A DNA stretch of 64,000 nucleotides. It comes from a virus. Numbering within the stretch: the first letter of the stretch is position 1; every line of letters begins with the position of its first letter. A model generated the notes under the pieces. The model saw only the letters and a program-made list of their open reading frames with translations. It was not told the origin of the DNA and searched no databases. Where the stretch lies: IMG/VR virus record IMGVR_UViG_3300042314_001189, positions 73,445 to 137,444 of that record; one strand, given 5' to 3'. Positions 32,732-62,373 of this stretch are shown here, piece after piece. The position numbers and the translations under genes were made by a program.

Positions 32732-32835
32732 TAAAAAAAATAAAAAAAACACAAAAAAACTTGACAAAACAAAAAAAAGTTAGTACCTTTGTATAACTTT
32801 TAAATAAGAGAGTATATTTAATAAAAGAAACAAAA

Positions 32836-32934
32836 ATGAGAACAATAAACATACATATGATTTCGATTAGTAATTGGAGACGCAATAGTCACCATACTGG
32901 TCAAGGTATGTTTAATGACATCATAGAATGGTAA
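32836..32934 (+). CDS. attenuator leader peptide 1 (MRTINIHMISISNWRRNSHHTGQGMFNDIIEW)
   Basis: Follows promoter TTGACA 32761 / TACCTTTG 32784; codons 4-20 are all I,N,H,M,S,W,R, matching downstream tRNAs. Confidence 0.85.
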   Translation: MRTINIHMISISNWRRNSHHTGQGMFNDIIEW

Positions 32935-32959
32935 AACATTTTAGATAATATTAACAAAG

Positions 32960-32989
32960 AAGCCTTGACCTAAAATCAAGGCTTTTTTT
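32960..32989 (+). terminator. attenuator terminator 1
   Basis: AAGCCTTGA cctaaaa TCAAGGCTT T-run; 5' arm GCCTTGACC also pairs with GGTCAAGGT (32899-32907) in leader. Confidence 0.85.
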
Positions 32990-33001
32990 ATGCTTATAAC
33001 T

Positions 33002-33193
33002 ATGGGAGAATTAGTAAGACCACTCGGAAAAGTAAAAGTAAAAAAGTTTAACGAAAACTTTGATGAAATAGTTGACGAGTATAAAAATAAAGCAAAAGAA
33101 ATGGGTTACAACGGTGACCTAAGATTTAAAAAAGAAAAAGGTAACATAGTAATTTTTGTTACAATAGATGGTGGCGTTAGCTCAGTTGGTTAG
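33002..33193 (+). CDS. hypothetical protein
   Basis: About 63 aa; stop lies inside tRNA-His gene. Confidence 0.45.
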   Translation: MGELVRPLGKVKVKKFNENFDEIVDEYKNKAKEMGYNGDLRFKKEKGNIVIFVTIDGGVSSVG

Positions 33194-33244
33194 AGTGCTA
33201 GATTGTGATTCTAGAGGTCATGGGTTCGACCCCCATACGTCACC
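33170..33244 (+). tRNA. tRNA-His (GTG)
   Basis: G-1, cloverleaf, loop TTGTGAT. Confidence 0.9.
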
Positions 33245-33278
33245 CAAATAGGTCTTTGATATGTTGGTAAATTAATAC

Positions 33279-33351
33279 ACGGGATTAGCTCAATTGGTAG
33301 AGTAGCGGTCTCCAAAACCGAAGGTTGCAAGTTCGATTCTTGCATCCCGTG
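33279..33351 (+). tRNA. tRNA-Trp (CCA)
   Basis: Cloverleaf, loop CTCCAAA. Confidence 0.9.
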
Positions 33352-33362
33352 CTAAAATATAT

Positions 33363-33445
33363 GGAAGGAGCCCGAATGGACGAGGACACCGCCTTGAAAG
33401 CGGCTGGGTGTAAAAGCTTTGGGGGTTCGATTCCCTCTTCTTCCG
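33363..33445 (+). tRNA. tRNA-Ser (TGA)
   Basis: Long variable arm, loop CTTGAAA, G73. Confidence 0.9.
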
Positions 33446-33516
33446 CTAAAATTAAATTATATGAAAAAAAAATTTGACATGCTTTAAGTTCTGCTAAACA
33501 ACAGACGATAAAGCAA

Positions 33517-33699
33517 ATGAAAAAAGAAACATTAAAAACAACAACAAACCGTAAAGTTTATAAAATGCTTCACCGCAAAGAACTTTATGATGAACAAGGA
33601 TTATGTCACTATTGTGGACCACATTCTGGTTGTAATTCTAATTTTAGACCAAGTTCAAATAGAAATTGGAAAATGTATCGTAAAACACAGTGGAAGTAA
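33517..33699 (+). CDS. small basic Cys/His protein
   Basis: 60 aa, CHYCGPHSGCN, NWKMYRKTQWK. Confidence 0.55.
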   Translation: MKKETLKTTTNRKVYKMLHRKELYDEQGLCHYCGPHSGCNSNFRPSSNRNWKMYRKTQWK

Positions 33700-33710
33700 T
33701 TCCACAATCT

Positions 33711-33784
33711 TGGTACCTAGCTCAACTGGTTAGAGCACTTCGCTGATACCGAAGAGGTTATGGGTTCGAGTCCCGTGGTACCAA
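33711..33784 (+). tRNA. tRNA-Ile (GAT)
   Basis: Cloverleaf, loop CTGATAC. Confidence 0.9.
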
Positions 33785-33791
33785 CAAAAAT

Positions 33792-33910
33792 TGTAGGGTG
33801 GTGAAATTGGCAGACACGCCATCTGGTCTCGATGGTGTCGATTATTATCAACAGAATTATACTTTTTGTTGATAATAATCAACATGTGGGTTCAAATCCT
33901 ACCCCTACAG
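33792..33910 (+). tRNA. atypical tRNA-like RNA with giant variable arm and non-canonical anticodon loop
   Basis: TGTAGGG/CCCTACA acceptor, Leu/Ser-type D loop, CCATC-TGGTCTC-GATGG, about 50-nt variable hairpin, T arm. Confidence 0.65.
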
Positions 33911-33913
33911 CAA

Positions 33914-33987
33914 GGTCCTTTAGCTCAGTTGGTTAGAGCAGCTCGCTCATAACGAGAAGGTCGTAGGTTCGAGTCCTACATGGACCA
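33914..33987 (+). tRNA. tRNA-Ile2/Met (CAT)
   Basis: Cloverleaf, loop CTCATAA; body resembles Ile2 (lysidine) tRNAs. Confidence 0.85.
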
Positions 33988-33993
33988 CAATAT

Positions 33994-34065
33994 TCTTCGG
34001 TAGCTCAGAGGCAGAGCACTCCGCTGTTAACGGATAGGTCGGGATTTCGAAATTCCCCCGAAGAG
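33994..34065 (+). tRNA. tRNA-Asn (GTT)
   Basis: Cloverleaf, loop CTGTTAA, G73. Confidence 0.85.
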
Positions 34066-34075
34066 CAACATATAT

Positions 34076-34147
34076 TCTCCTTTAGCTCAGCGGTAGAGCA
34101 ATCGGCTGTTAACCGATAGGTCCTAGGTTCGAATCCTAGAGGGAGAG
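34076..34147 (+). tRNA. tRNA-Asn (GTT)
   Basis: Cloverleaf, loop CTGTTAA, G73. Confidence 0.9.
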
Positions 34148-34153
34148 CAACAT

Positions 34154-34225
34154 GGCGATATAGTATAATGGTTATTACACTTGGCTCATATCCTTGAGAA
34201 GTAGGTTCAATTCCTTCTATCGCTA
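34154..34225 (+). tRNA. tRNA-Met (CAT), elongator-like
   Basis: GGCGATA/TATCGCT acceptor, loop CTCATAT, weak anticodon stem. Confidence 0.7.
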
Positions 34226-34321
34226 CACAATATCTTTGCTCGCCAAATTGGCGAGCAAATGGCGAGATAAGACAAAAAAGATGAAATTAGGGAGCTTATC
34301 TCGCCAAAATTATGATATTAT

Positions 34322-34396
34322 GCATCCATAGCTCAATTGGATTAGAGCACTCGCCTACGAAGCGAGAGGTTGAAAGTTCGAATCTTTCTGGATGTA
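34322..34396 (+). tRNA. tRNA-Arg (ACG)
   Basis: Cloverleaf, loop CTACGAA. Confidence 0.9.
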
Positions 34397-34401
34397 CATA
34401 T

Positions 34402-34474
34402 GCCCCTATCGTTCAACTGTATAGGACCAGCCCCTTCTAAGGGCTTAATGGGAGTTAGAGTCTCTCTGGGGGTA
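34402..34474 (+). tRNA. tRNA-Arg (TCT)
   Basis: Cloverleaf, loop CTTCTAA. Confidence 0.8.
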
Positions 34475-34479
34475 CAAAT

Positions 34480-34563
34480 GGAGAGTAATGCGGTATGGTT
34501 GCCGTCCTTGTTTGCTAAACAAAGGGTACCTTCGGGTATGGGATTCGATTTCTCTGCTCTCCG
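34480..34563 (+). tRNA. tRNA-Ser (GCT)
   Basis: Variable arm, loop TTGCTAA, G73. Confidence 0.85.
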
Positions 34564-34635
34564 CTTTTTGTTTATATTGTATATATATAATAATTTTTTA
34601 GTATATTTGATAAGTATTTATAATAAAAAAAACAC

Positions 34636-36571: not shown

Positions 36572-37504
36572 ATGAAAGATAAAATTAGAGAAATTTTAAG
36601 GGAGAATACCGAAAAAAATATTTTAGGTGTTGTGGTATCTAAACCAAATCAAGAATTGATAATTATGCGTGGAATTCCAGGTTCTGGAAAATCAACAAAG
36701 GCTAAATCACTTGTTGGGAAAGGTAAAATACACTCTACCGATGATGTTATTGAAGCTGGTGGTGATTATAACGAATTTTTTGCTAAAATGATAGCATCAA
36801 AAGACTTTGCACCATTAAGCCGAGTTCACTCAACCAACTTGAAAAACGCTATTGCATCTATGAAGTCTGGTGTTTCACCAGTTATCATCGATAACACAAA
36901 CATTAAACAAAACGAGTCAAAAGCTTATATTGTTGCTGCGTTGGAAATGGGTTATGCTGATAATAACATTAAATTTGTTGATATTGGTACTGCTGGGTTA
37001 GAAGCGGCTGAATTAGCTAAAAGAAATACTCATGGTGTACCATTGGATAAAATAGAAATGATGATTGCTAGTCACACAGCACAAGGGCCATTGACGCTTC
37101 AAAGCGTTTTGGAGTCAAAAGATATGTACAAACAATCCGATGTATTGTACTCTGCTGTAGTGTTGGACAACGGTTCTAAATCAGCATTGTTATCAAGACT
37201 TGAAGATATGATACCAGAAGGATGGAAAGTATTTGCTCACCACATGACAATTGTTTTTGGTAAAGGTGTTCCAAATAAAGAAGACTTGGGTAAAGAGGTG
37301 ACTTTGTATGTTGAAGCGATAGGTCTTAGCGATATGGCTATGGCTGTAAGGGTTGAAGGTTATCCATCGGCCAACGCAATACCACACATTACAATTGCGA
37401 TAAATCCAGACGGTGGTAAACCAGTGATGTCCAACGATATAACAAAATGGCAAAAAATTAAAAACTTTGCTATCAAAGGTGTTGTTACCGAAATAAAAAA
37501 ATGA
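36572..37504 (+). CDS. polynucleotide kinase-like P-loop fused to 2H phosphoesterase (RNA end-healing)
   Basis: MRGIPGSGKST, IIDNTN, RNTHGVP; HHMTI and PHITI 2H motifs. Confidence 0.8.
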   Translation: MKDKIREILRENTEKNILGVVVSKPNQELIIMRGIPGSGKSTKAKSLVGKGKIHSTDDVIEAGGDYNEFFAKMIASKDFAPLSRVHSTNLKNAIASMKSGVSPVIIDNTNIKQNESKAYIVAALEMGYADNNIKFVDIGTAGLEAAELAKRNTHGVPLDKIEMMIASHTAQGPLTLQSVLESKDMYKQSDVLYSAVVLDNGSKSALLSRLEDMIPEGWKVFAHHMTIVFGKGVPNKEDLGKEVTLYVEAIGLSDMAMAVRVEGYPSANAIPHITIAINPDGGKPVMSNDITKWQKIKNFAIKGVVTEIKK

Positions 37505-37716
37505 TGAATGAAGTCAAATTAAACCTAAAAGGGTGGGGATTGGTCTTTGTAGAGATTATGTGGATTGAAGGTAATTTATACAAAATAAAATTTGTGCCAG
37601 AAGATAACATACTTTGTGATGTTAAAACAGAAATATTTCACGTGAAAGAAATATTGAACATTAATGAAGTTTTTATTGATAAAAATTTAAAGATTACGAA
37701 GTATGATAACGAATAA
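37501..37716 (+). CDS. hypothetical protein
   Basis: 71 aa ORF. Confidence 0.5.
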   Translation: MMNEVKLNLKGWGLVFVEIMWIEGNLYKIKFVPEDNILCDVKTEIFHVKEILNINEVFIDKNLKITKYDNE

Positions 37717-38338
37717 ATCAGCACAAGTTATTTTGATAAATAAAAATGGTTTGGTGCTAGGTGTTTCTAGGAAAGATGACCATAATGATTTTGGATTACC
37801 TGGTGGAAAGATGGACCCAGAAGATGGTGACGACCCAAAAGTCACAGCTATTCGTGAAACAAAAGAAGAAACTGGTTTGGATATTACAAACCTAAGACTT
37901 ATATTTGCGATACATAAAGATGGTTTTATGGGTTACACCTATTTGGCTGATTATTCTGGTAAAATTGAACATGATGAACCACATGTTGTTAAATGGCAAC
38001 CTATGGAAGTCATGGTTAACGGTAGGTTCGGTAGATACAATCAATTGGTTGCGGAGTCTTTAAATGATATGAACATCAAATATCAATACCATGTTGATAT
38101 GAACGCATTGACGTTGGATGTAACACAAATAATTGATGGTCATTATAATGGTGAAGTAAAATTAGATTTCATCAGAAAAGAATGGGGTTATAACCATTAC
38201 AACATTTATTTTGTTGACGATAACGGTGAATTAGAAGAAACATTTGGTTTTGATAAATCATTGGATAAGAAATTAGATATCGTTTCAAAAAAATATGGTG
38301 TTAAGGTTAAGTTATCCTCAGAATATTATTGCAAGTAA
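37703..38338 (+). CDS. NUDIX hydrolase
   Basis: LPGGKMDPED...AIRETKEETGL. Confidence 0.85.
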   Translation: MITNKSAQVILINKNGLVLGVSRKDDHNDFGLPGGKMDPEDGDDPKVTAIRETKEETGLDITNLRLIFAIHKDGFMGYTYLADYSGKIEHDEPHVVKWQPMEVMVNGRFGRYNQLVAESLNDMNIKYQYHVDMNALTLDVTQIIDGHYNGEVKLDFIRKEWGYNHYNIYFVDDNGELEETFGFDKSLDKKLDIVSKKYGVKVKLSSEYYCK

Positions 38339-45128: not shown

Positions 45129-45129
45129 T

Positions 45130-51789: not shown

Positions 51790-51796
51790 TAACGAC

Positions 51797-52078: not shown

Positions 52079-52217
52079 AATATTAAGTTTATTATAAATA
52101 TTTAAAAATTTACATTTGTTCTTTATTTTAAAAAAATAAACATTATATTTGCAAATTTAATTTAATTAAATTTGTTTATTTCAAAAAAAATTAATACCTT
52201 TGTGTAAATTAATACAT

Positions 52218-53603: not shown

Positions 53604-53606
53604 AAT

Positions 53607-54110: not shown

Positions 54111-54137
54111 AAACTATGGAAAAAGAATTTGGTTCAG

Positions 54138-55288: not shown

Positions 55289-55390
55289 TATGAAGAGATT
55301 TATACAAAAACTATTATTGTGGTGGAGCTATAATAAACCAAAAAAAGATAAAAAATCTATATGGAAACTTTAATTTAAAAAAATAAAATT

Positions 55391-55630
55391 ATGAAAACAG
55401 AAGATGATTTTTTGAATATACAAAAAGAAACCATGGAGATACTAGGGTTCTGGGATGAAACTTATAAAGCTTCATTAATCAGAGTTTTAGAAAGCAATTA
55501 CAAAAGGGATATAATCAAAGTTTGGTGTATTTCAGATTTAGTAATGAATGGTGAAAAGGTTTTGATAAAGTGGAACAAAAGACATGCGCCATTATCTGAA
55601 GATGAAATGATAAAAAGATACGGTGTTTAA
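55391..55630 (+). CDS. hypothetical protein
   Basis: 79 aa ORF. Confidence 0.5.
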   Translation: MKTEDDFLNIQKETMEILGFWDETYKASLIRVLESNYKRDIIKVWCISDLVMNGEKVLIKWNKRHAPLSEDEMIKRYGV

Positions 55631-55963
55631 TTAGTTAAAAAACTCATTGTTTTCCAAAAGAAACTGAATAACATCATCAGCTTTTTTACAGTCGTCCAAA
55701 AAAGAAAAAACGTGTTTATCTTCTAGTTGGAACCATTCATTTTTAGCTTCAGTTTTATAAGCTGAATACTTCATATGCATGCTTCGTTCAACTTTTTTGT
55801 AGTTCTTTGATTTATAAGTTTTTAATAATGATATTTTGTCAGAATTACCAGTTTGTAATTGTTTTACTCTGATTTCTGGTTCGTTTTTGGTGATACCTAT
55901 TTTAAAGGTTTCAACACCATCACTACTAACTTGAAGAATTAAATATACGTAACCCATATTCAA
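55631..55963 (-). CDS. GIY-YIG-like (T5orf172/MUG113) domain protein
   Basis: GYVYLI, FKIGIT, RVKQLQTGN, E..H, NEWF. Confidence 0.8.
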   Translation of the reverse strand: MNMGYVYLILQVSSDGVETFKIGITKNEPEIRVKQLQTGNSDKISLLKTYKSKNYKKVERSMHMKYSAYKTEAKNEWFQLEDKHVFSFLDDCKKADDVIQFLLENNEFFN

Positions 55964-55995
55964 ATATACTAAAAAGTCCAGGAATAGTCAATACC

Positions 55996-56739
55996 TTAAA
56001 GCTCGGTAATTGCTTTATTTATGTATTTCATCAGAGTTAATCCTTTTACAGTTAAGAATACGTCTTCATGATTATTGAAATACGCTAAAACATTGATAGG
56101 TTTATTGTTTATTCTAATTAGTTCGTCTTCATGTTGCGCTTTAGATAACAATTTAAAATACTTTGATTTAAAAATAAACTCGTCTGTGTTTGTAACATAT
56201 TCTAAAATAAATGCAACTCTCAAATCCTCGTCAACCATATCTTGTAACATATCTAGTCTTGCTTGAGGTGAGTTAAATTCAGAAAAATCAATATTAGCAG
56301 CAACTTCGTTTAATGTATCATGGTTTCCGAATGTTGCTGCTATATCAAATTCAGTTGACCAACTTTGAATCTTTGAACTTGCTTTATATATATAGGGGTT
56401 TACTGATGTTAAGTTTATTTCTTGTTTTTTATCTATAAAATACTTTATTGGTATTGTGATACCACGGAATACTTTTGTTTTTTCTGGTATTAAAACTTCT
56501 GGGTATTGTTGCATACAAGCTTTTAAATTTTTCATTGCTGAAATAAATTCTGGGGTAACATCTTCACCATACATGTTATCTGTAAAATCAGATATATCCC
56601 TAACATATTGGTTCTCAATCCCAGTATTTTTTTCTGTCCCACCTAATTCTGTTGCGAATAATTCGTAACCAAATTTATTTACACAAGCTTGAATTTCAAC
56701 CTCATTAATCAAAGACTCATATAATTTGTAAATTTTCAT
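55996..56739 (-). CDS. putative ADP-ribosyltransferase (R-S-E type)
   Basis: VFRG, QSWST, HEDE motifs; TATTTATA upstream; LYESLINE N-terminus. Confidence 0.5.
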   Translation of the reverse strand: MKIYKLYESLINEVEIQACVNKFGYELFATELGGTEKNTGIENQYVRDISDFTDNMYGEDVTPEFISAMKNLKACMQQYPEVLIPEKTKVFRGITIPIKYFIDKKQEINLTSVNPYIYKASSKIQSWSTEFDIAATFGNHDTLNEVAANIDFSEFNSPQARLDMLQDMVDEDLRVAFILEYVTNTDEFIFKSKYFKLLSKAQHEDELIRINNKPINVLAYFNNHEDVFLTVKGLTLMKYINKAITEL

Positions 56740-56813
56740 AAACTTTTTTCTATAAATATTTGGTAGATTGAAAAAGATTTACTACCTTTGTAATGTAATA
56801 AAAGATAAACAAC

Positions 56814-57068
56814 ATGAAAAACGTAAATTTAACAGTACTTTATTTAGCTTTGGTATCAGAATTTGGTGTGACTAGCTTTGAATTATCTAGCATTGTCCCA
56901 ACAACAACAAATGAGCCGATTGATGCTATGATTGATTTTAACTCTAAGTTAGATGAATTTGATGTTGACAGAATACAATCAATTGTTACTGAAAACATAA
57001 CTGGTGAAGTTAAACAAGCAACCGTTAAAACAAAAGGAAACGTTATACACGTTTATATTGAGTTTTAA
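56814..57068 (+). CDS. hypothetical protein
   Basis: 84 aa ORF. Confidence 0.5.
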   Translation: MKNVNLTVLYLALVSEFGVTSFELSSIVPTTTNEPIDAMIDFNSKLDEFDVDRIQSIVTENITGEVKQATVKTKGNVIHVYIEF

Positions 57069-57640
57069 GCTTTAAAATCACTCATATTGATAACAATGTT
57101 GTCCATGAAAGATTTGTCAACATAAGACCTTTCTTTATTGACTGGCCAACCACTTTTTAAATTGTTGTCAATGTGTGCTTGAAGCTGAAGATGCGGAGAC
57201 CTATTTGCTGGTATTTTTGGGTCAGCCAAAACAATACTAGGCATACGATTGTCATATATCCCAATGTAGTAAGAAAGACCACTTTTAACGTCTTCTTTAC
57301 GTTGAGCCGTGACAACAGCTGTTACTGGATTACCTTTAACTGGTTGTACTTTAACCATACCTAGAGGTACCAAAACACAAATACCTTCTTTGCCTTTTTT
57401 ACCAATAGGGTAATCAGTAGCAATAACTGCATTTATTTTATCTTTTAATTTTGCTTGAAGTTGTGAGATTATCCAAGCGTCTTGTGTTTCTTTAGATGCG
57501 TTAGGTAAATAAACATTTGCTGGTAATTGAATACCAATGATATCGTTAACTACTTCATTAACACGGTCATTAAAGTGAGCCATTGGGTCGGCTTCGGTAA
57601 TATATTCTAAAAGATATTTTTTCAATAAGTCTTTAATCAT
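57065..57640 (-). CDS. hypothetical protein (head-targeting-like N-terminus)
   Basis: MIKDLLKKYLLEYITE; TATTTATA upstream. Confidence 0.6.
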   Translation of the reverse strand: MIKDLLKKYLLEYITEADPMAHFNDRVNEVVNDIIGIQLPANVYLPNASKETQDAWIISQLQAKLKDKINAVIATDYPIGKKGKEGICVLVPLGMVKVQPVKGNPVTAVVTAQRKEDVKSGLSYYIGIYDNRMPSIVLADPKIPANRSPHLQLQAHIDNNLKSGWPVNKERSYVDKSFMDNIVINMSDFKA

Positions 57641-57761
57641 GATAATATTTTACTATAAATATTGTAAAAAAATAATAAAACACTTGACAAACATAAAAAA
57701 AAGTAGTATCTTTGTGTAACTTTTATAAATAATGGTATATTTAATAAAAAACAAAAAAATT

Positions 57762-57836
57762 ATGAAAACTATTAACACAGTACTTACTTTATTATTATGT
57801 TTGCTAGTGGCAGACTGGGTGGGCTATGCGTGTTAA
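57762..57836 (+). CDS. attenuator leader peptide 2 (MKTINTVLTLLLCLLVADWVGYAC)
   Basis: Follows TTGACA 57684 / TATCTTTG 57707; codons 7-16 are V,L,T,L,L,L,C,L,L,V, matching downstream Cys/Val/Leu tRNAs. Confidence 0.85.
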   Translation: MKTINTVLTLLLCLLVADWVGYAC

Positions 57837-57860
57837 AAGTTGAATACTATATAACAAGAG

Positions 57861-57891
57861 AAGCCCATCTAAGTAATTAGATGGGTTTTTT
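57861..57891 (+). terminator. attenuator terminator 2
   Basis: AAGCCCATCTAA gtaa TTAGATGGGTTT T-run; 5' arm pairs with TGGGTGGGCT (57816-57825). Confidence 0.85.
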
Positions 57892-57898
57892 GCTTTAT

Positions 57899-57969
57899 GG
57901 CACCGTGGCCGAGTGGCTAGGCAGAGGTCTGCAAAACCTCGAACACTGGTTCGAATCCAGTCGGTGCCT
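57899..57969 (+). tRNA. tRNA-Cys (GCA)
   Basis: Cloverleaf, loop CTGCAAA, U73. Confidence 0.9.
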
Positions 57970-57984
57970 CTAAAAATAATAATT

Positions 57985-58137
57985 ATGGAAAAAGAAAAAA
58001 CAGTATTAACGGGTAAATTTAAAGGTTCTAGGGAATTTTTTAGACCAAAAGTGAATCAATTAGAAAATAATTTTAATTGGGGTAAAATGATAAAAAAGTT
58101 GTTAAAGACTAAAAAAAAAGTAAAAAAAGTGTTATGA
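57985..58137 (+). CDS. small basic protein
   Basis: ATG 57985, about 50 aa. Confidence 0.45.
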   Translation: MEKEKTVLTGKFKGSREFFRPKVNQLENNFNWGKMIKKLLKTKKKVKKVL

Positions 58138-58472
58138 TTAGTAGTAAAGAGTTCTTAATGAACAGAGATGAAACGGGTAGACTTATTGTCAAAATGCTTG
58201 ACGGTACAAACAAACAATATTTTGTTGAGTTTATTGAACCTAAAGGCGGTATTAGAACAGATTGGGGTTCTTATAACCCTAGTACTGGGAACATCGAGAA
58301 TAAAAAAGGTGCTGGTAAGTACAATGGTGGTATACCAGCAAGTGAATCATTGATTACTGTCAAAAATGGTTTTAGTGAAGAAAACGCTAACACTATTTAC
58401 GAAGGGGCTTCGTTTGAATCTACTATAACAGAAATGCACGCTAAATGGAAAAAAGAAAATGGTTATGCTTAA
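58134..58472 (+). CDS. hypothetical protein
   Basis: 112 aa ORF. Confidence 0.6.
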   Translation: MISSKEFLMNRDETGRLIVKMLDGTNKQYFVEFIEPKGGIRTDWGSYNPSTGNIENKKGAGKYNGGIPASESLITVKNGFSEENANTIYEGASFESTITEMHAKWKKENGYA

Positions 58473-58767
58473 TGAAACTGAAATAAAAAAAGACTTATTT
58501 AAGTCAAAAGCAATGGCTAAGTTTAATCACTATATTGCTGGTAACTTATATTACAACGTTGAAGTATTTGGTGATATGTATGTATTTCCGATTGCAACTG
58601 TAGAAGAAGTAATTGAAACTGATTCGTTTGAAAGAGAAGAAATACAAACACTAAAATTATCTTCAGATTTAGGTACAACTATATTTAAAAGTGAAATTAG
58701 AGGTTCTGAATTAGCTAGATGGATTAGTAAAGCCATAAAGAATGAAACATTTATAAAGCTAGGGTAA
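58459..58767 (+). CDS. hypothetical protein
   Basis: 102 aa ORF. Confidence 0.6.
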   Translation: MVMLNETEIKKDLFKSKAMAKFNHYIAGNLYYNVEVFGDMYVFPIATVEEVIETDSFEREEIQTLKLSSDLGTTIFKSEIRGSELARWISKAIKNETFIKLG

Positions 58768-58779
58768 AACCTAGTATAT

Positions 58780-58851
58780 TGGACTGTAACTCAGAGGCAG
58801 AGTGCTGCTATGACATGGCAGAAGTCGGGATTTCAAAATTCCCCAGTCCAA
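58780..58851 (+). tRNA. tRNA-Val (GAC)
   Basis: Cloverleaf, loop ATGACAT. Confidence 0.8.
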
Positions 58852-58858
58852 CAAATAT

Positions 58859-58931
58859 TGAGATATAGCTCAGTGGAAGTAGCAACTCCCTTACATGGAG
58901 AAGGTCGTAGGTTCGAATCCTACTATCTCAA
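58859..58931 (+). tRNA. tRNA-Val (TAC)
   Basis: Cloverleaf, loop CTTACAT. Confidence 0.85.
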
Positions 58932-58990
58932 CTTTAATGTTTCATAAAAAGTGAAACAAACAATTAAATTTCACATAAAGTGAAATAAAT

Positions 58991-59023
58991 GCTTCGGTGG
59001 TGGAATAGGTAGACACGAGGGAC
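58991..59023 (+). pseudogene. 5' half of a tRNA-Leu truncated at the anticodon loop
   Basis: GCTTCGG-TGGTGGAATAGGTAGACAC-GAGGGAC then unrelated sequence leading to HNH gene. Confidence 0.7.
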
Positions 59024-59055
59024 GACTTTTCTATCATATCTACATATTTATTAGT

Positions 59056-59484
59056 ATGGAAGATATGGAATTTATCAAAGTGTGTCAAGAATCTGACACC
59101 ATGGCAAAAGCGGCTGCGACTTTAGGGTTGCATTTTAATACTTTTAAACGTAAAGCGGTTAAATTAGGTTGTTATAAACCAAATCAAGCTGGTAAAGGTA
59201 TTACTAAAAAAGATAATGGTAATAAAATATCATTAGATGAAATATTAGGTGGTAAACACCCTTATTACCAAACTAATAAATTGAGGAAAAGATTGATTAG
59301 TGAGGGTTATAAAACTGGTGAGTGTGAAGAATGTCATATTACTGAATGGAATGGTAAACCAATAACTATTGAATTAGACCATATAGACGGTAATAGAAAT
59401 AACCATTCATTAGAAAACTTGAAAATGTTATGTCCAAACTGCCATAGTCAGACACCAACATTTAGAGGTAAAAAAAGAGAATAA
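59056..59484 (+). CDS. HNH homing endonuclease
   Basis: CEEC, ELDHIDGNRNNHSLENLKMLCPNCHSQT; N-terminal HTH-like segment. Confidence 0.9.
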   Translation: MEDMEFIKVCQESDTMAKAAATLGLHFNTFKRKAVKLGCYKPNQAGKGITKKDNGNKISLDEILGGKHPYYQTNKLRKRLISEGYKTGECEECHITEWNGKPITIELDHIDGNRNNHSLENLKMLCPNCHSQTPTFRGKKRE

Positions 59485-59568
59485 GCTCCGATGGTGGAAC
59501 TGGTAGACACGCAGCACTTAAAATGCTGTTCCCAGACGGGAGTGAGGGTTCGAGTCCCTCTCGGAGTA
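59485..59568 (+). tRNA. tRNA-Leu (TAA)
   Basis: Variable arm, loop CTTAAAA. Confidence 0.9.
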
Positions 59569-59576
59569 CAATATAT

Positions 59577-59658
59577 GCGGATATGGGGGAATTGGTAGAC
59601 CCGCTGGTCTTAGAAACCAGTGCCGAAAGGCGTGCGAGTTCGAGTCTCGCTATCCGTA
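59577..59658 (+). tRNA. tRNA-Leu (TAG)
   Basis: Variable arm, loop CTTAGAA. Confidence 0.9.
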
Positions 59659-59661
59659 CAA

Positions 59662-59982
59662 ATGATAACAAAATTAGTAAACATTAAGAATGAACCTTAC
59701 GATGTCTATATCGGTAGAGGTTCTAAATGGGGTTGTCCTTATACAATAATCAAAGATAGACGAACACTTGCAACTGAAATAGTTGGTTCTAAAGAAGAAG
59801 CTTTATCCAAGTATCGAGATTATGTGTTGGCTAGTCCAGAACTTATGAGTTCACTAAGTGAATTGGAGGGGAAGACGTTGGGTTGTTTTTGCAAACCAGA
59901 AAAATGTCATGGTGATATCTTGTTAGAATTATTAGAAAGAGAAAAATTAAAAAAATTTTTTAATAATAATTTGGATAAGTAA
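59662..59982 (+). CDS. DUF4326-family protein
   Basis: YDVYIGRGSKWG, ELEGKTLGCFCKPEKCHGDIL. Confidence 0.8.
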   Translation: MITKLVNIKNEPYDVYIGRGSKWGCPYTIIKDRRTLATEIVGSKEEALSKYRDYVLASPELMSSLSELEGKTLGCFCKPEKCHGDILLELLEREKLKKFFNNNLDK

Positions 59983-60023
59983 AATATTATTATTACCTTT
60001 GTGTATAATCTTATATTTATATT

Positions 60024-60335
60024 ATGGTAGCAATTTGGTTTATATGTTTAGTTTTGGTAACTAGAATCATTGAGTTTAGAATCTTTATGAAGAAAGTAAG
60101 CAAAATGTGTAACAAGTACGATTGGAATTACATCAACGAAAATCCAATGTGTTTACTTGATAAGATGGAAAACGAAAATGGTTATTATTTAACTAGTGAA
60201 TGGTCAGCTTACAACTTTTTATTTTTGAAAGGTCCAAGCCCCAAACAAATGTTTTTATCATTTAAACCATTAACTATTGAATACCAATATAACAAAGAAG
60301 TAGTTGATAAAGTAAGAAAATATGAGATTAAGTGA
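60024..60335 (+). CDS. hypothetical protein
   Basis: 103 aa, N-terminal hydrophobic. Confidence 0.5.
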   Translation: MVAIWFICLVLVTRIIEFRIFMKKVSKMCNKYDWNYINENPMCLLDKMENENGYYLTSEWSAYNFLFLKGPSPKQMFLSFKPLTIEYQYNKEVVDKVRKYEIK

Positions 60336-60972
60336 GATTTATATCAAAGAATTTTTTTTAAAAGAATTTTGGGGTAATGTAAGTGAAGATTTATTAAGTG
60401 AGGTTGACACTTCTGGTATCAATGCCTTATTAAGTAAAGCTGATGAATTAGTTTTTAAAAAATTTAGAATCTTACCCAACAATAAGTCTTATTTCATTGC
60501 TGGTTCAGCTAGACTATATTTGTATCCTAAATTAAGAGATGCGTTTGGTTTGAGTGGTACGATAGGTGATTTAGATTTAGTTATCCCAAATGAACAACTT
60601 TGGGTGAACGCTGGGTTACAAGAAGAATTACAAAAAGGTGGTATATATAGACCAACAAAAGATGGTTCAGTTGAAGCGTTTACTATCTGGGACCCATCAA
60701 AAGCTGGTGGTTCATATGCTGATGTAAAAGTTAGGTCAACCAATGAAATATTAGCCAGTGCTGATTTAATTGATGGTTATTATTATATGAGCATGGCAGA
60801 TGTTGCTGATTATAAAACAAAGTTGAGTAGGGATAAAGAACAAGAAGTTGTAAACCTTATCAACCAATATAAAGAGAGTAGCGGTGAGGATAAACATGGT
60901 TTTTTAAGACAAATAATTCATGCGATAGGTCTTAACAATGCTAGAGAATTCTTGGGTGGGATAAGAAAATAA
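60322..60972 (+). CDS. nucleotidyltransferase-like protein
   Basis: YFIAGSARL...GDLDLVI (GS...DxD). Confidence 0.55.
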   Translation: MRLSEIYIKEFFLKEFWGNVSEDLLSEVDTSGINALLSKADELVFKKFRILPNNKSYFIAGSARLYLYPKLRDAFGLSGTIGDLDLVIPNEQLWVNAGLQEELQKGGIYRPTKDGSVEAFTIWDPSKAGGSYADVKVRSTNEILASADLIDGYYYMSMADVADYKTKLSRDKEQEVVNLINQYKESSGEDKHGFLRQIIHAIGLNNAREFLGGIRK

Positions 60973-61062
60973 TAAAAAAATTTTAAAAAAAACTTGACAT
61001 TTTACAAAATAGTTAGTACCTTTGTATAACTTTTAAAAAAAACGAAATATTTAATTAGAACA

Positions 61063-61152
61063 ATGAGAACAATTAACAACATATTTGAATTTGATTTCTT
61101 CGCAGCCGAGGCCGATTTTAGCCTAGGAAGGTCAACTCATGTCAAAAGTTAA
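61063..61152 (+). CDS. attenuator leader peptide 3 (MRTINNIFEFDFFAAEADFSLGRSTHVKS)
   Basis: Follows TTGACA 60994 / TACCTTTG 61017; codons 8-19 are all F,E,D,A, matching downstream tRNAs. Confidence 0.85.
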   Translation: MRTINNIFEFDFFAAEADFSLGRSTHVKS

Positions 61153-61178
61153 CGAAACTCGTAAACAATATTGATTAG

Positions 61179-61207
61179 AAGCTTGGCCGAAACGCCAAGC
61201 TTTTTTT
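61179..61207 (+). terminator. attenuator terminator 3
   Basis: AAGCTTGGC cgaaac GCCAAGCTT T-run; 5' arm can pair with GGTCAACT (61130-61137). Confidence 0.85.
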
Positions 61208-61283
61208 GTTTAGATAAATTAAAAAAAAAGTTGTAAATAAATTTGGATATGTCAAAAATTATTTATACCTTTGTAAAAGAAAA

Positions 61284-61356
61284 GGGAAGATAGCTCAGTT
61301 GGTAGAGCACGGCACTGAAGATGCTGGTGTCGGGGGTTCGAATCCCTCTCTTCCCA
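61284..61356 (+). tRNA. tRNA-Phe (GAA)
   Basis: Cloverleaf, loop CTGAAGA. Confidence 0.9.
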
Positions 61357-61418
61357 CAAATATGGAACAACATCGCTCCCGATATGCCATGGCTTGTATA
61401 CGAGTAACGGGAGACAAT

Positions 61419-61490
61419 GGCCCATTCGTCTAACGGTTAGGACGTTAGGTTTTCAACCTAGAAACACGAGTTCGATTCTCGTATGGGCTA
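61419..61490 (+). tRNA. tRNA-Glu (TTC)
   Basis: Cloverleaf, loop TTTTCAA. Confidence 0.85.
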
Positions 61491-61491
61491 C

Positions 61492-61645
61492 AAAACATCT
61501 GGTGAGGTAAGACTGGTAGGCTTCTAATCCGACCCCTCGCAAGAGGAAGGAGAGACTAACGAAATAACCAAACTAGTAGTTAGTCGAAGGGATTTACTTG
61601 AATCATCGAGTTTGGTGTAGAGTAAATTGTGTAACTGGGTGTTTT
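61492..61645 (+). ncRNA. structured intergenic RNA of unknown family
   Basis: AAAACATCTGG/CTGGGTGTTTT terminal stem; internal hairpins CCTC-GCAA-GAGG, GACTAAC/GTTAGTC, ATTTACT/AGTAAAT. Confidence 0.45.
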
Positions 61646-61649
61646 ATTT

Positions 61650-61723
61650 GGTCTGTTAGTAGAGTTGGTTACAATATCGCACTGTCACTGCGAAGGTCAC
61701 GGGTTCGAATCCCGTACAGACCG
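61650..61723 (+). tRNA. tRNA-Asp (GTC)
   Basis: Cloverleaf, loop CTGTCAC, G73. Confidence 0.9.
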
Positions 61724-61726
61724 CAA

Positions 61727-61963
61727 AAATAACATACAGCAAATTTTATTTGTGGTGGTAAGTTAGTGAAAACTACACTAAAATAATTTATGTTGATTCG
61801 AAAGATATTATTGATATAGTGAGATTGTGTGGTCACACATTAACTGGTCAGAAATCAGCTCACCTAGTATTAGAATATATTAGTAGATAAATAAATTAAA
61901 ATGTCGTCAAAATATTAAGAAGGTTTAACCTTGACCAAGTTAAAAGACCTTAAATGTTATTTG
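61727..61963 (+). ncRNA. CAGCAA bulged-stem ncRNA, copy F
   Basis: AAATAACAT-ACAGCAA ... ATGTTATTT-G. Confidence 0.5.
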
Positions 61964-62014
61964 TTAAAATGAAGTTGGTAATTCACCGTAAAACCGTGGT
62001 TTCTTCATTTATCT

Positions 62015-62087
62015 GGGGAAGTAGCTCAACTGGCTGAGCGTTACCTTTGCAAGGTAAAGGATGTGGGTTCGAATCCCATCTTCTCCA
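62015..62087 (+). tRNA. tRNA-Ala (TGC)
   Basis: G3-U70, loop TTTGCAA. Confidence 0.9.
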
Positions 62088-62222
62088 CAAACAGTACCTC
62101 GATGCTTCCCATAAGAACAGCACAGAGGTCTTGTTCTCACGTAAACGAATAGCCCTAGGCATAAGTTATGGTGAGAGACCCATCCTCTCTTTGGTAGACG
62201 TATCGAATGATGATGGTAATCT

Positions 62223-62296
62223 GGGGGATTAGCTCAGCTGGCTAGAGCACCGCACTTGCACTGCGGGGGTCAACGGTTCGAATCCGTTATCCTCCA
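62223..62296 (+). tRNA. tRNA-Ala (TGC)
   Basis: G3-U70, loop CTTGCAC. Confidence 0.9.
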
Positions 62297-62301
62297 CAAT
62301 T

Positions 62302-62373
62302 GGCCCATTCGACAAGTGGTTAAGTCGTTGCCCTTTCACGGCAGAGTCACGGGTTCGAATCCCGTATGGGTCA
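62302..62373 (+). tRNA. tRNA-Glu (TTC)
   Basis: Cloverleaf, loop CTTTCAC. Confidence 0.9.

What the first reader, a model, noticed from the sequence alone, without database searches (positions are those of the whole stretch)
32761..62373. tRNA operons controlled by codon-matched leader-peptide attenuators: a phage sensor for tRNA depletion
Seen: three tRNA clusters share one 5' architecture: CTTGACA...TAGTAyCTTTGTrTAACTTTT promoter, a 24-32 codon ORF starting M(R/K)TIN, a segment in the ORF 3' half complementary to a terminator 5' arm, and an intrinsic terminator before the first tRNA. After the shared N-terminus, each leader's codon block uses almost only the amino acids of the tRNAs downstream, and the three sets do not overlap (I/N/H/M/S/W/R; V/L/C; F/E/D/A). 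Established: this is the layout of ribosome-mediated attenuators of amino-acid operons (trpL, hisL, ilvGEDA leaders). Inference: ribosome stalling on codons whose tRNAs are missing (for example cut by host anticodon nucleases of the PrrC/RloC/VapC type, or uncharged) allows antitermination and transcription of the replacement tRNAs. I know of no description of attenuation governing tRNA genes in this multiplexed way; this needs a literature check.
Basis: partly seen in the sequence, partly recalled or inferred. Interest (0 to 1): 0.97.

Follow-up and report, generated by a model that had tools for sequence, protein, structure and literature searches.

The report
Leader-peptide attenuators gating phage tRNA clusters
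This uncultured lake phage puts a tiny translated test gene and a switchable transcription stop in front of each of its three tRNA gene blocks, each test gene written in the codons its own block's tRNAs read, so it probably makes a block only when ribosomes read those codons slowly.

Summary
Three units, each a promoter, a 24-32-codon ORF and an intrinsic terminator, precede the three tRNA clusters.

- **Codon match.** After the shared N-terminus the ORFs are written in the amino acids of their own cluster (15/15, 9/12 and 12/12 residues). The three sets do not overlap. In leader 1, 11 codons name all 10 tRNA species, against 0 of 45,263 control windows.
- **Switch.** Just after the codon block, an ORF segment pairs with the 5' arm of the terminator (z -5.8, -3.8, -2.4). 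It changes along with the terminator in relatives.
- **Relatives.** Related contigs carry four leader types that together cover all 20 amino acids. The predicted G/P/T/K/Q/Y leader exists in them. By synteny it lies just past the end of this contig, which is 39% complete.
- **Second lineage.** Cultured Cellulophaga phages phi17:2 and phi4:1 split their tRNAs differently, and their leaders follow that split.

Best reading (0.8): ribosome-mediated attenuation that senses aminoacyl-tRNA supply.

Nothing is experimental. Leader 2 matches less well, and cluster 3 also has an ungated promoter. The link to anticodon nucleases is only circumstantial, resting on RNA-repair genes nearby.

Eight searches aimed at this question found no paper on such control of tRNA genes. 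This scan has noted the same device on other phage genomes.

The parts
32760..32791 (+). Promoter of leader 1: CTTGACA, 20-nt spacer, TACCTTTG (-7 box). The predicted start of transcription is about 32796.
   Evidence: The -7 box position of -12 to -5 is taken from passages of PMC9723704. The start site is inferred.
32836..32934 (+). Leader ORF 1, 32 codons. Sensing block is codons 6-20 (32851-32895): IHMISISNWRRNSHH.
   Evidence: The block is 15/15 in the cluster set. Codons 6-16 cover 10/10 tRNA species, against 0 of 45,263 null windows.
32898..32908 (+). Region 2 of leader 1 (antiterminator arm, TGGTCAAGGTA). It pairs with 32960-32970.
   Evidence: -16.4 kcal/mol with its own terminator, against -8.5 to -9.1 with the relatives' terminators; z -5.84, 0 of 200 shuffles.
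32960..32989 (+). Intrinsic terminator 1: AAGCCTTGA / TCAAGGCTT stem followed by T7.
   Evidence: One search lists the hairpin under the - strand label.
33171..34564 (+). tRNA cluster 1: His, Trp, Ser-TGA (33363-33446), Ile-GAT, CAT (33914, probably Ile2), Asn x2, CAT (34154), Arg-ACG, Arg-TCT and Ser-GCT. Small ORFs lie at 32990/33003-33193 and 33517-33699.
57683..57714 (+). Promoter of leader 2: CTTGACA, 20-nt spacer, TATCTTTG. The predicted start of transcription is about 57719.
57762..57836 (+). Leader ORF 2, 24 codons. Sensing block is codons 6-17 (57777-57812): TVLTLLLCLLVA. An in-frame ATG 10 codons upstream (57732) could also serve as the start.
   Evidence: 9/12 in set; 3/5 species and 5/8 cognate codons in the strict window.
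57813..57826 (+). Region 2 of leader 2 (GACTGGGTGGGCTA). It pairs with the terminator's 5' arm at 57861-57872.
   Evidence: -17.7 kcal/mol; 0 of 500 codon shuffles; z -3.80, 0 of 200.
57861..57891 (+). Intrinsic terminator 2: AAGCCCATCTAA / TTAGATGGGTT stem followed by T6.
   Evidence: One search lists the hairpin under the - strand label.
57899..59659 (+). tRNA cluster 2: Cys, Val-GAC, Val-TAC, Leu-TAA and Leu-TAG. Interspersed are ORFs at 58134-58472 and 58459-58767, a 5' fragment of a tRNA-Leu near 58996, and an HNH endonuclease gene at 59056-59484.
60993..61024 (+). Promoter of leader 3: CTTGACA, 20-nt spacer, TACCTTTG. The predicted start of transcription is about 61029.
61063..61152 (+). 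Leader ORF 3, 29 codons. Sensing block is codons 8-19 (61084-61119): FEFDFFAAEADF.
   Evidence: run of 12; 4/4 species and 9/13 strictly cognate.
61130..61137 (+). Region 2 of leader 3 (GGTCAACT). It pairs with TTGGCC at the top of the terminator's 5' arm. An alternative partner is 61109-61120.
   Evidence: kinetic fold; z -2.41, 4 of 200.: -10.9 kcal/mol for the alternative. This is the weakest of the three.
61177..61207 (+). Intrinsic terminator 3: AGAAGCTTGGC / GCCAAGCTT stem followed by T7.
   Evidence: + strand, 11 pairs.
61243..61273 (+). Second promoter of the ordinary phage class (TTG, 20-nt spacer, TACCTTTG). It lies between terminator 3 and tRNA-Phe and bypasses the attenuator.
   Evidence: The motif class is shared with about 20 other gene promoters of the contig.
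61284..62374 (+). tRNA cluster 3: Phe, Glu, Asp, Ala, Ala and Glu, with long spacers at 61495-61650 and 62090-62220.
   Evidence: RNA-library contigs cover 61372-61822.

Best explanation
Each unit is a ribosome-mediated (leader-peptide) transcription attenuator whose input is the supply of the very aminoacyl-tRNAs encoded behind it.

Transcription starts at a strong Bacteroidota-type promoter. A ribosome then translates the mini-ORF. Three outcomes follow.

1. **Fast decoding.** If the sensing codons are read quickly, the ribosome runs through region 2 into the last 7-10 codons. It then sits between region 2 and the terminator while the terminator is being made. The terminator hairpin forms and RNA polymerase stops before the tRNAs.
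2. **Stalling.** If any tRNA of the set is scarce, the ribosome stalls in the sensing block, which lies at least 13 nt upstream of region 2. Region 2 stays free and pairs with the terminator's 5' arm as soon as that arm emerges. The polymerase then reads into the tRNA genes.
3. **No translation.** Region 2 is held by the sensing block (clear only in leader 1) and transcription terminates.

The result is a per-block negative feedback: a tRNA block is made on demand.

What is shown from sequence: the codon match, the alternative pairings and their co-variation, and conservation in relatives and in a second phage lineage.

What is inferred: translation of the ORFs, termination, the direction of the switch, and the start sites.
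For: **1. Codon match.**
- Sensing blocks are 15/15, 9/12 and 12/12 in the own-cluster amino-acid set.
- Leader 1's codons 6-16 are 11/11 cognate and name 10/10 tRNA species of its cluster. They use both Arg boxes (AGA, CGC), both Ser boxes (TCG, AGT), and ATA, ATG and ATT. This is reached by 0 of 45,263 windows of the phage's own long frames.
- Cross-matches of leader 1 to the other two clusters are 0/11 and 0/11.

**2. Hardware.**
- Each ORF is followed 27-28 nt later by a hairpin with a T6-7 run.
- The stretch from region 2 to the terminator's 5' arm folds far better than shuffles: z -5.84 and -3.80 (0 of 200 each) and -2.41 (4 of 200).

**3. Co-variation.**
- Among 24 leaders from the window and related contigs (6 per type, some near-duplicates), region 2 sits at codons about 18-28 in all.
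- It matches its own terminator. For window leader 1 the energy is -16.4 with its own terminator and -8.5 to -9.1 with five relatives' terminators. Type I has four different matched pairs of region 2 and terminator arm.

**4. Kinetic folds.** I masked nt 1-46 to mimic a stalled ribosome and ended the transcript at the terminator loop. The region 2 to 5'-arm helix is then the minimum-energy fold in 22 of the 22 rows I could see; 2 of 24 rows were cut from the output. The free full-length RNA forms the terminator in those same rows.

**5. Selection on the peptide or tRNA level.**
- Codon 12 of type I is AGT, AGC or TCG, always Ser.
- IHMI changes to MHII.
- In types F and T the substitutions stay inside the set.

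**6. A second lineage with another partition.**
- Leader A of phi17:2 and phi4:1 reads QRLHLQELEQP (11/11) before Pro, Glu, Gln, His, Leu x2 and Arg-ACG. It uses CGT for Arg.
- Leader B reads TKTGITVIDKTKGARAY (17/17) before Ala, Lys, Ile, Gly, Met, Asp, Thr, Val, Arg-TCT, Met and Tyr. It uses AGA for Arg.

**7. Internal control.** The same promoter class drives the tmRNA and a tRNA-Met pair without any leader ORF.

**8. Plausibility in the host group.** Passages of PMC9723704 report strong clues for leader-peptide attenuation upstream of amino-acid operons in a flavobacterium.
Against: - **No experiment.** The metatranscriptome contigs laid cannot show RNA ends or levels.
- **Leader 2 is much weaker.**
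  - 9/12 residues are in set, and two Thr codons have no Thr tRNA.
  - No GTC or GTT codon serves tRNA-Val(GAC).
  - A run of 7 is reached by 5 of 522 small ORFs.
  - Strict-window coverage is 3/5, reached by 1,639 of 45,794 null windows.
- **The anti-antiterminator fold is significant only in leader 1.** For the ORF-only fold, z is -3.34 there, but -1.13 in leader 2 (29 of 200) and +0.60 in leader 3 (139 of 200).
- **Leader 3's antiterminator is short.** It is 6-8 bp. It was not better than codon shuffles in my first test (150 of 500; 82 of 300).
- **Cluster 3 has a bypass.** A second promoter lies downstream of terminator 3, so cluster 3 is not made only through the gate.
- **The terminating ribosome does not cover region 2.** At the stop codon it lies about 21-27 nt away. 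The off state therefore rests on timing and steric exclusion, which I argue but cannot compute.
- **Relatives' clusters hold tRNAs the leaders do not name.** Examples are His behind F- and T-type leaders, Ser-TGA and Cys behind F-type, and Ser, Asn, Trp and Phe behind phi17:2 leader B.
- **Other genes sit behind the gates.** These include protein genes and an HNH endonuclease.
- **Some assignments are uncertain.** Reading the 33914 CAT tRNA as tRNA-Ile2 is an inference from 77% identity to tRNA-Ile(GAT). Leader B of phi17:2 has only a GTG start.
Confidence: 0.8

Rival explanations
1. Same hardware, but its biological purpose is defence sensing. The attenuators fire when host anticodon nucleases (PrrC, RloC or VapC-like) or other tRNA-depleting defences cut specific tRNAs. 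The phage then replaces that block and repairs the cut tRNAs with its own healing and sealing enzymes.
For: The window carries a tRNA-repair kit between and around the clusters.
- CCA-adding enzyme (29163-30278).
- A kinase with a tRNA-ligase phosphodiesterase domain (36572-37504).
- A T4 Rnl1-type RNA ligase (38776-39900).
- A second RNA ligase (44085-45128).
- RlaP (52413-53603).
- A tmRNA.

Gating each block separately would suit an attack on a subset of tRNAs. That T4 kinase and ligase 1 counter PrrC is recalled, not from a call.
Against: - No nuclease, host or infection data are available.
- A stalled ribosome cannot tell a cut tRNA from an uncharged or merely outcompeted one.
- The same leaders occur in phi17:2 and phi4:1, and I did not examine those phages for repair genes.
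- Gene neighbourhood alone is weak evidence.
Confidence: 0.3
2. Same hardware, but it works mainly as an infection timer or codon-demand gauge. Host tRNAs decay, or phage mRNAs flood the ribosomes, so decoding slows and the blocks switch on in mid or late infection. No defence system is involved.
For: - The feedback logic follows directly from the architecture.
- The four leader types together cover all 20 amino acids in relatives. That fits a general supply control rather than a response to one nuclease.
- Cluster 3's extra ungated promoter suggests a basal supply plus a top-up.
Against: No expression data are available. This reading does not explain why the tRNAs are split into separately gated blocks rather than placed behind one gate.
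Confidence: 0.45
3. The mini-ORFs are not translated, or their translation is irrelevant. The leaders would be RNA processing or stability elements, or simple partial terminators that set a fixed level of tRNA transcription. The codon match would come from composition or chance.
For: - Leader 2's hydrophobic run is reached by 5 of 522 random small ORFs.
- The 1:2 folds of leaders 2 and 3 are no better than shuffles.
- No Shine-Dalgarno sequence is present, though that is normal for Bacteroidota (passage).
Against: - 0 of 45,263 null windows reach leader 1's coverage.
- The three sets are disjoint and each matches only its own cluster.
- Ser is kept through an AGT-to-TCG switch.
- An unrelated partition in phi17:2 shows the same match.
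- Frame, start and stop are kept in all 24 leaders analysed.
Confidence: 0.04
4. Inverted logic. Complete translation of the leader would open the 1:2 hairpin and promote readthrough. A block would then be transcribed only when its codons can already be read, which is a positive feedback or a licensing check.
For: In the free RNA of leader 1, region 2 is held by the sensing block. Some ribosome passage is therefore needed to free it.
Against: - The ORF continues 7-10 codons past region 2 in all 24 leaders. A ribosome that completes translation passes over and beyond region 2 instead of leaving it free.
- The sensing codons lie upstream of region 2, as in the classical attenuators where stalling gives readthrough (the trp and his models are recalled).
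- A positive loop would make tRNAs only when they are not needed.
Confidence: 0.08

Closest known systems
Multivalent leader-peptide attenuators of enterobacterial amino-acid operons (thrL for Thr+Ile; ilvL/ivbL for Ile, Val, Leu; also trpL, hisL, pheL, leuL). Details recalled, not from a call.
   Same: Short translated leader ORF with clustered regulatory codons. Intrinsic terminator before the first structural gene. Antiterminator that competes for the terminator's 5' arm. Stalling on hungry codons favours readthrough. Several amino acids are sensed by one leader.
   Different: - The controlled genes are tRNAs, not biosynthetic enzymes, so the sensed quantity is also the product.
- Up to 10 tRNA species are sampled about once each, rather than through runs of one codon.
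- The ORF runs 7-10 codons beyond region 2.
- Several such units split the tRNA set of one genome.
- The setting is a phage of Bacteroidota.
- No Rfam leader family matches: the best is Thr_leader at 21.3 bits against a gathering score of 55.
T-box riboswitches (sensing of uncharged tRNA upstream of aminoacyl-tRNA synthetase and amino-acid genes in Firmicutes). Recalled.
   Same: A terminator/antiterminator switch that reads the state of a specific tRNA.
   Different: A T-box binds one tRNA directly through a specifier codon and the T-box sequence, without a ribosome. Here there is an ORF with start and stop, many codons, and no T-box match in Rfam.
Leader-peptide attenuation clues in Flavobacterium psychrophilum (PMC9723704, passages read)
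   Same: The same host phylum. TAnnTTTG -7 promoters and no Shine-Dalgarno sequences. Short leader peptides upstream of operons.
   Different: That paper reports them for amino-acid biosynthesis operons of the bacterium, not for tRNA genes or phages.
Phage tRNA arrays and tRNA repair as counter-defence (T4 tRNA cluster with polynucleotide kinase and RNA ligase 1 against PrrC; tRNA-rich phages such as T5). Recalled.
   Same: A large phage with many tRNAs and an RNA healing and sealing gene set.
   Different: To my knowledge those arrays are described as constitutively or temporally transcribed. I found no description of a codon-matched translated leader.
The same device noted earlier by this scan on other phage genomes (e1-5368892, e1-6097466, e1-5806396, e1-5968842, e1-5890974, e1-5996116)
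   Same: A mini-ORF and terminator before each tRNA block, with codons matching the block. One note describes four leaders that partition 20 amino acids.
   Different: They are on other DNA, and these are unchecked AI notes. Here the contig holds three of the four types, and a link to the cultured phages phi17:2 and phi4:1 is added.

Membership tests
Ribosome-mediated (leader-peptide) transcription attenuators | Short ORF with start and stop in the 5' leader of the operon | tested here: met
   ORFs of 32, 24 and 29 codons lie 34-43 nt from the predicted start sites. The frame is kept in all 24 related leaders analysed.
Ribosome-mediated (leader-peptide) transcription attenuators | Regulatory codons in the ORF that correspond to the operon's product | tested here: met
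   15/15, 9/12 and 12/12 residues are in the own-cluster set. Leader 1 is 11/11 cognate and covers 10/10 tRNA species, against 0 of 45,263 null windows. Leader 2 is weak.
Ribosome-mediated (leader-peptide) transcription attenuators | Intrinsic terminator between the leader ORF and the first structural gene | tested here: met
   A hairpin with a T6-7 run lies 27-28 nt after each stop codon.
Ribosome-mediated (leader-peptide) transcription attenuators | Antiterminator that is mutually exclusive with the terminator and left free by a ribosome stalled on the regulatory codons | tested here: met
   z -5.84, -3.80 and -2.41. The segment co-varies with the terminator in relatives. Kinetic folds show it in 22 of 22 visible rows. 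It is weak in leader 3.
Ribosome-mediated (leader-peptide) transcription attenuators | Anti-antiterminator (1:2) pairing that overlaps the regulatory codons | tested here: inconclusive
   Leader 1 z -3.34 (0 of 200). Leader 2 z -1.13 (29 of 200). Leader 3 z +0.60 (139 of 200).
Ribosome-mediated (leader-peptide) transcription attenuators | Controlled genes are amino-acid biosynthesis or transport genes | tested here: not met
   The downstream genes are tRNAs with a few small ORFs and an HNH endonuclease. This is the point of novelty.
Ribosome-mediated (leader-peptide) transcription attenuators | Readthrough rises when the cognate charged tRNA is scarce | not testable with these tools
   This needs reporters, Term-seq or Ribo-seq. 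The RNA contigs cannot show it.
Rfam leader families (Thr_leader, His_leader, Trp_leader, Leu_leader and others) | Match to the covariance model at the gathering score | tested here: not met
   There are no leader hits at gathering score in the window. The best sub-threshold hit is Thr_leader at 21.3 bits against 55, over the terminator only. There are none at leaders 2 and 3.
T-box riboswitch | Specifier loop and T-box antiterminator recognised by Rfam | tested here: not met
   No T-box match appears.
Bacteroidota sigma-A promoters | TTG at -33, a spacer of about 19-20 nt, and TAnnTTTG at -12 to -5 | tested here: met
   All three leaders have TTG, a 20-nt spacer and TA(C/T)CTTTG. The consensus and its position come from passages of PMC9723704. 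Which sigma factor acts is unknown, because the phage also encodes a sigma-70-like protein.

The most novel reading that the evidence does not exclude
Large Bacteroidota phages run a multiplexed tRNA-supply homeostat. The tRNAs for all 20 amino acids are split into a few operons. Each operon is gated by its own translated codon panel that samples every tRNA species of that operon about once. The system works together with the phage's tRNA healing and sealing enzymes, CCA-adding enzyme and tmRNA. Its role would be to sense and repair damage when host defences deplete particular tRNAs. It would be the first case of leader-peptide attenuation in which the sensed molecule and the regulated product are the same tRNAs.
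Probability: 0.3. Interest if true: 0.95.

Novelty: new variant of a known kind. Interest (0 to 1): 0.88.

Why it matters
- **A new use of a textbook mechanism.** Leader-peptide attenuation is known for amino-acid operons. Here it appears to be turned onto tRNA genes themselves, giving a direct feedback from decoding speed to tRNA production, block by block.
- **How and when phages deploy their tRNAs.** It would explain how tRNA-rich phages decide when to make which tRNAs. That question is open in work on phage tRNAs, codon-usage mismatch and tRNA-targeting defences.
- **A compact sensor design.** In leader 1, one codon per tRNA species gives 10 species in 11 codons. This is a natural multi-input sensor that could be reused as a reporter of the availability of individual tRNAs in Bacteroidota.
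- **It is testable now.** The same logic is present in two cultured phages of Cellulophaga baltica, phi17:2 and phi4:1.

Tried and rejected
- **Rfam.** The gathering-score scan of the whole window and E-value scans of the three regions and of 22600-26700 gave no known leader, riboswitch or other family for the leaders, the inter-tRNA spacers or the 23750-24310 stretch.
- **RNA evidence.** Four RNA-library runs hold parts of the stretch. Laid on 44000-63999, they gave only short contigs, so nothing can be said on termination or readthrough. Some contigs cover 61372-61822 without differences. High depths over tRNAs come from other organisms' tRNAs.
- **First antiterminator test.** I compared the terminator arm (without its loop) against codon-shuffled ORFs.
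  - It was not significant for leader 3 (150 of 500; 82 of 300).
  - It was also not significant for L005 (203 of 500), phi17:2 leader B (309 of 500) and four F-type relatives.
  - Including the loop bases and using folds of region 2 to the arm gave the values reported.
- **Metagenome pattern scan.** Of 18 loci, 13 were chance matches with no leader or tRNAs and were dropped: L004, L007-L015, L017, L019 and L020. Five were kept: L003, L005, L006, L016 and L018. L006, L035 and L021 duplicate L005, L031 and L001 and were not counted again.
- **L033.** It first looked like a promoter without a leader. Reading it showed the leader and terminator further downstream, after an inserted 36-codon ORF.
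- **A fourth leader in this contig.** There is none. The contig is rated 39% complete and linear, so its absence means nothing.
- **A mistake of mine.** My pattern was mis-specified and found nothing. I used that call only for the completeness figure.
- **TAG recoding by the tRNA(CUA).** Stop codons of long ORFs are TAA 112, TGA 14 and TAG 8. Only two unconvincing TAG-split frames turned up, both on the - strand, so I did not pursue it.
- **Literature.** I made nine searches in all. Eight were aimed at this control and none listed a paper on leader-peptide control of tRNA genes. The ninth was about attenuation in Bacteroidetes. I saw only the search listings and abstract starts, plus passages of PMC9723704 and PMC7366714. 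Subscription journals are not covered.
- **Coordinates.** My first coordinates for the ORFs were off by one base and were corrected.

Full report
**What the DNA is.** The window is the last 64 kb of a single 137,444-bp contig with 32% G+C. The contig is classed as a linear virus record estimated 39% complete. DNA runs that hold it are lake-water metagenomes. All 24 tRNA genes that ARAGORN finds in the contig lie in the window. Promoters of the form TTG, 20 nt, TA(C/T)CTTTG precede about 25 genes on the contig. That is the sigma-A consensus of Bacteroidota, with TAnnTTTG at -12 to -5 (passages of PMC9723704). The host is therefore most likely a member of that phylum (inference).

The 21-nt promoter motif occurs three times, with 0.03 expected, and nowhere else in the contig.
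- Behind each copy lies a mini-ORF: 32836-32934 (32 codons), 57762-57836 (24) and 61063-61152 (29).
- After 27-28 nt comes a G+C-rich hairpin with a run of 6 or 7 T. The scan tool lists all three hairpins, two of them under the minus-strand label.
- The tRNAs follow.
- A tRNA-Ser(TGA) at 33363-33446, missed by default ARAGORN, is found with relaxed settings and has a weak tRNA-clan hit in Rfam.

**Codon match.**
- After the first five codons the ORFs read IHMISISNWRRNSHH, TVLTLLLCLLVA and (NI)FEFDFFAAEADF. The clusters hold His/Trp/Ser/Ile/Met/Asn/Arg, Cys/Val/Leu and Phe/Glu/Asp/Ala.
- Unbroken runs of own-set residues are 17, 7 and 12. Windows of the phage's own long ORFs reach this in 0 of 36,499, 0 of 37,579 and 17 of 36,904 cases. 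Of 522 small ORFs, 1, 5 and 1 reach it, the leader itself included each time.
- Some stall positions leave the downstream switch element free: codons 6-16 in leader 1. At those positions leader 1 has 11 codons, all cognate to its cluster, and they name all 10 tRNA species (ATA, CAT, ATG, ATT, TCG, AGT, AAT, TGG, AGA, CGC). None of 45,263 control windows reaches that, and 0/11 codons fit cluster 2 or cluster 3.
- This count assumes that the CAT tRNA at 33914 is a lysidine tRNA-Ile2. I infer that from its 77% identity to the tRNA-Ile(GAT).
- Leader 3 covers 4/4 species, with 9/13 codons strictly cognate (32 of 44,909 windows).
- Leader 2 is clearly weaker. It covers 3/5 species and 5/8 codons in the strict window, has two Thr codons without a Thr tRNA, and has no codon for tRNA-Val(GAC).

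**The switch.**
- In each leader a segment just 3' of the codon block pairs with the 5' arm of the terminator: 32898-32908, 57813-57826 and 61130-61137. Duplex energies are -16.4, -17.7 and about -9 to -11 kcal/mol.
- The stretch from this segment to the terminator loop folds with z -5.84, -3.80 and -2.41 against dinucleotide shuffles (0, 0 and 4 of 200).
- The free full-length RNAs fold into the terminator plus an ORF-internal hairpin that ties the segment to the codon block. That internal fold beats shuffles only in leader 1 (z -3.34; -1.13 and +0.60 for the others).
- With the first 46 nt masked and the transcript ended at the terminator loop, the antiterminator is the best fold in all 22 rows I could see of 24.
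- The ORFs run 7-10 codons beyond the segment. A ribosome that is not delayed therefore ends up between the segment and the terminator. I take this to be what prevents antitermination, but that step is argued, not computed.

**Relatives.**
- Scans for the promoter motif, with or without the first codons, gave 5 true loci of 18 in metagenome contigs and 16 loci in viral contigs.
- Every promoter copy there is followed by a leader. At L033 it comes after an inserted 36-codon ORF.
- The leaders fall into four types whose codon blocks use {H,I,M,N,R,S,W}, {C,L,V}, {A,D,E,F} and {G,K,P,Q,T,Y}. Together these are all 20 amino acids. Each type stands before the matching tRNAs.
An example is MKTTTTYKTQYQPKGGKPQ... 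before Pro, Gln, Tyr, Thr, Gly and Lys.
- In L023, homologues of the window's last three ORFs lie directly upstream of such a leader, about 750 nt from it. The window ends 188 nt after the last of these ORFs. The missing fourth block is therefore probably just off the contig.
- Region 2 stays at codons about 18-28 while its sequence follows that of the terminator. Type I has four different matched pairs, and the window's own pair fits only itself.
- Substitutions in the codon blocks keep the amino-acid set. Ser is kept through AGT, AGC and TCG, IHMI changes to MHII, and E/D/A are exchanged. This argues for selection on decoding, not on RNA alone.

**A second lineage.** Cellulophaga phages phi17:2 and phi4:1 (genus Lightbulbvirus) surfaced through tRNA similarity. 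They have another promoter sequence, other leader N-termini and another partition.
- Leader A: MKIQRLHLQELEQP... before Pro, Glu, Gln, His, Leu-TAG, Leu-TAA and Arg-ACG.
- Leader B: ...TKTGITVIDKTKGARAY... before Ala, Lys, Ile, Gly, Met, Asp, Thr, Val, Arg-TCT, Met and Tyr.
- Leader A uses CGT for Arg and leader B uses AGA, each fitting its own Arg tRNA.
- Against a perfect fit, the last four tRNAs (Ser, Asn, Trp, Phe) are not named by leader B. Leader B has only a GTG start and two Leu codons.

**Caveats for this window.**
- A promoter of the ordinary class lies between terminator 3 and tRNA-Phe (61243-61273). Cluster 3 is therefore also transcribed without passing the gate.
- Protein genes and an HNH endonuclease sit inside the gated units.
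- Relatives' clusters hold a few tRNAs that their leaders do not name.
- The RNA-library contigs I laid tell nothing about termination.

**Comparison with what is known.** The architecture is that of leader-peptide attenuators. The closest are the multivalent thr and ilv leaders (recalled). The regulated genes are tRNAs, however, and no Rfam leader or T-box model matches. Eight searches aimed at this control returned no paper on such control of tRNA genes. A ninth search showed that leader-peptide attenuation is suspected for amino-acid operons in a flavobacterium and in Bacteroides (passages only). Earlier notes of this scan report the same device on several other phage genomes. I did not use them as evidence, but my results agree with them.

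**Purpose.** The hardware senses slow decoding, whatever its cause. A tRNA-repair gene set lies around the clusters: a CCA-adding enzyme, a kinase with a phosphodiesterase domain, an Rnl1-type ligase, a second RNA ligase and RlaP, together with a tmRNA. This makes a link to tRNA-cutting host defences attractive, but it is only neighbourhood evidence.

**Verdict.** It is a new variant of a known mechanism, with confidence 0.8 in attenuation by tRNA supply and about 0.3 in the defence-sensing reading.

Noticed in passing
window 22637-23103: A phage-encoded tmRNA (Rfam 66.7 bits) lies behind a promoter of the same CTTGCA...TAGTACCTTTG class as the leaders. It has no mini-ORF. A small hairpin (22697-22720) lies between the promoter and the gene.
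   Followed up: partly
window 23681-24520: Another promoter of this class (23681-23712) is followed by about 550 nt without a long ORF (23750-24310) and then by two tRNA(CAT) genes. No Rfam family matches this stretch. It shares the words GTTCTTTAATTTAT with the tmRNA leader. It may be an unknown structured RNA or a long precursor leader.
   Followed up: partly
window 26565-26636: A tRNA with anticodon CTA (an amber-reading tRNA, which ARAGORN calls Pyl). Stop codons of long ORFs are TAA 112, TGA 14 and TAG 8. I found no convincing TAG-interrupted genes.
   Followed up: partly
window 28192-54110: RNA-repair and stress gene set by Pfam:
- sigma-70-like factor (28192-29139)
- CCA-adding enzyme (29163-30278)
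- kinase with tRNA-ligase phosphodiesterase domain (36572-37504)
- NUDIX (37703-38338)
- T4 Rnl1-type RNA ligase (38776-39900)
- HD_4 domain protein (41670-42179)
- ATP-dependent DNA ligase (42212-43606)
- second RNA ligase (44085-45128)
- PARP-like protein (45861-47168)
- PAS/HATPase protein (49051-50655)
- RlaP (52413-53603)
   Followed up: partly
window 33792-33911: A tRNA-like element with acceptor and T arms. It has an aberrant anticodon loop and a perfect 14-bp hairpin inserted in the variable region. ARAGORN calls it only with the intron option, and doubtfully. The equivalent position in L001 is called a tRNA with a 4-base anticodon.
   Followed up: partly
window 58996-59484: The 5' part of a tRNA-Leu-like gene (about 58996-59030) is followed by an HNH endonuclease gene (59056-59484; Pfam HNH 21.5 bits). 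An intact tRNA-Leu(TAA) follows immediately. It looks like the scar of a homing-endonuclease insertion.
   Followed up: no
window 32990-33193; L001 about 5320-5490 (- strand); L033 about 2000-2183 (- strand): A conserved small protein gene of about 55-60 aa lies between the type I terminator and the first tRNA, in the window and in relatives. It has no Pfam family. It is co-gated with the tRNAs.
   Followed up: no
window 61495-61650 and 62090-62220: Long spacers lie between tRNAs in cluster 3, with no ORF and no Rfam match. Contigs from RNA libraries cover 61372-61822 without differences. They are possibly precursor spacers or small RNAs.
   Followed up: no
L002 (phi17:2) 4559-4627, 5483-5602, 5819-5891, 7424-7525: Annotation gaps in the GenBank record.
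- Leader A is not annotated.
- 'gp077' is leader B, with a start inside the promoter.
- A tRNA-Lys(TTT) found by ARAGORN is not annotated.
- 'gp078' overlaps a tRNA-Ser(TGA)-like sequence.
- Leader A's ATG sits 4 nt after the -7 box, so the mRNA may be leaderless.
   Followed up: partly
window 59620-59982: A DUF4326 protein gene starts right after the last tRNA of cluster 2, with no terminator or promoter between. Homologues sit at the same place in L003, L029 and L036. It may be co-transcribed with the gated tRNAs.
   Followed up: no
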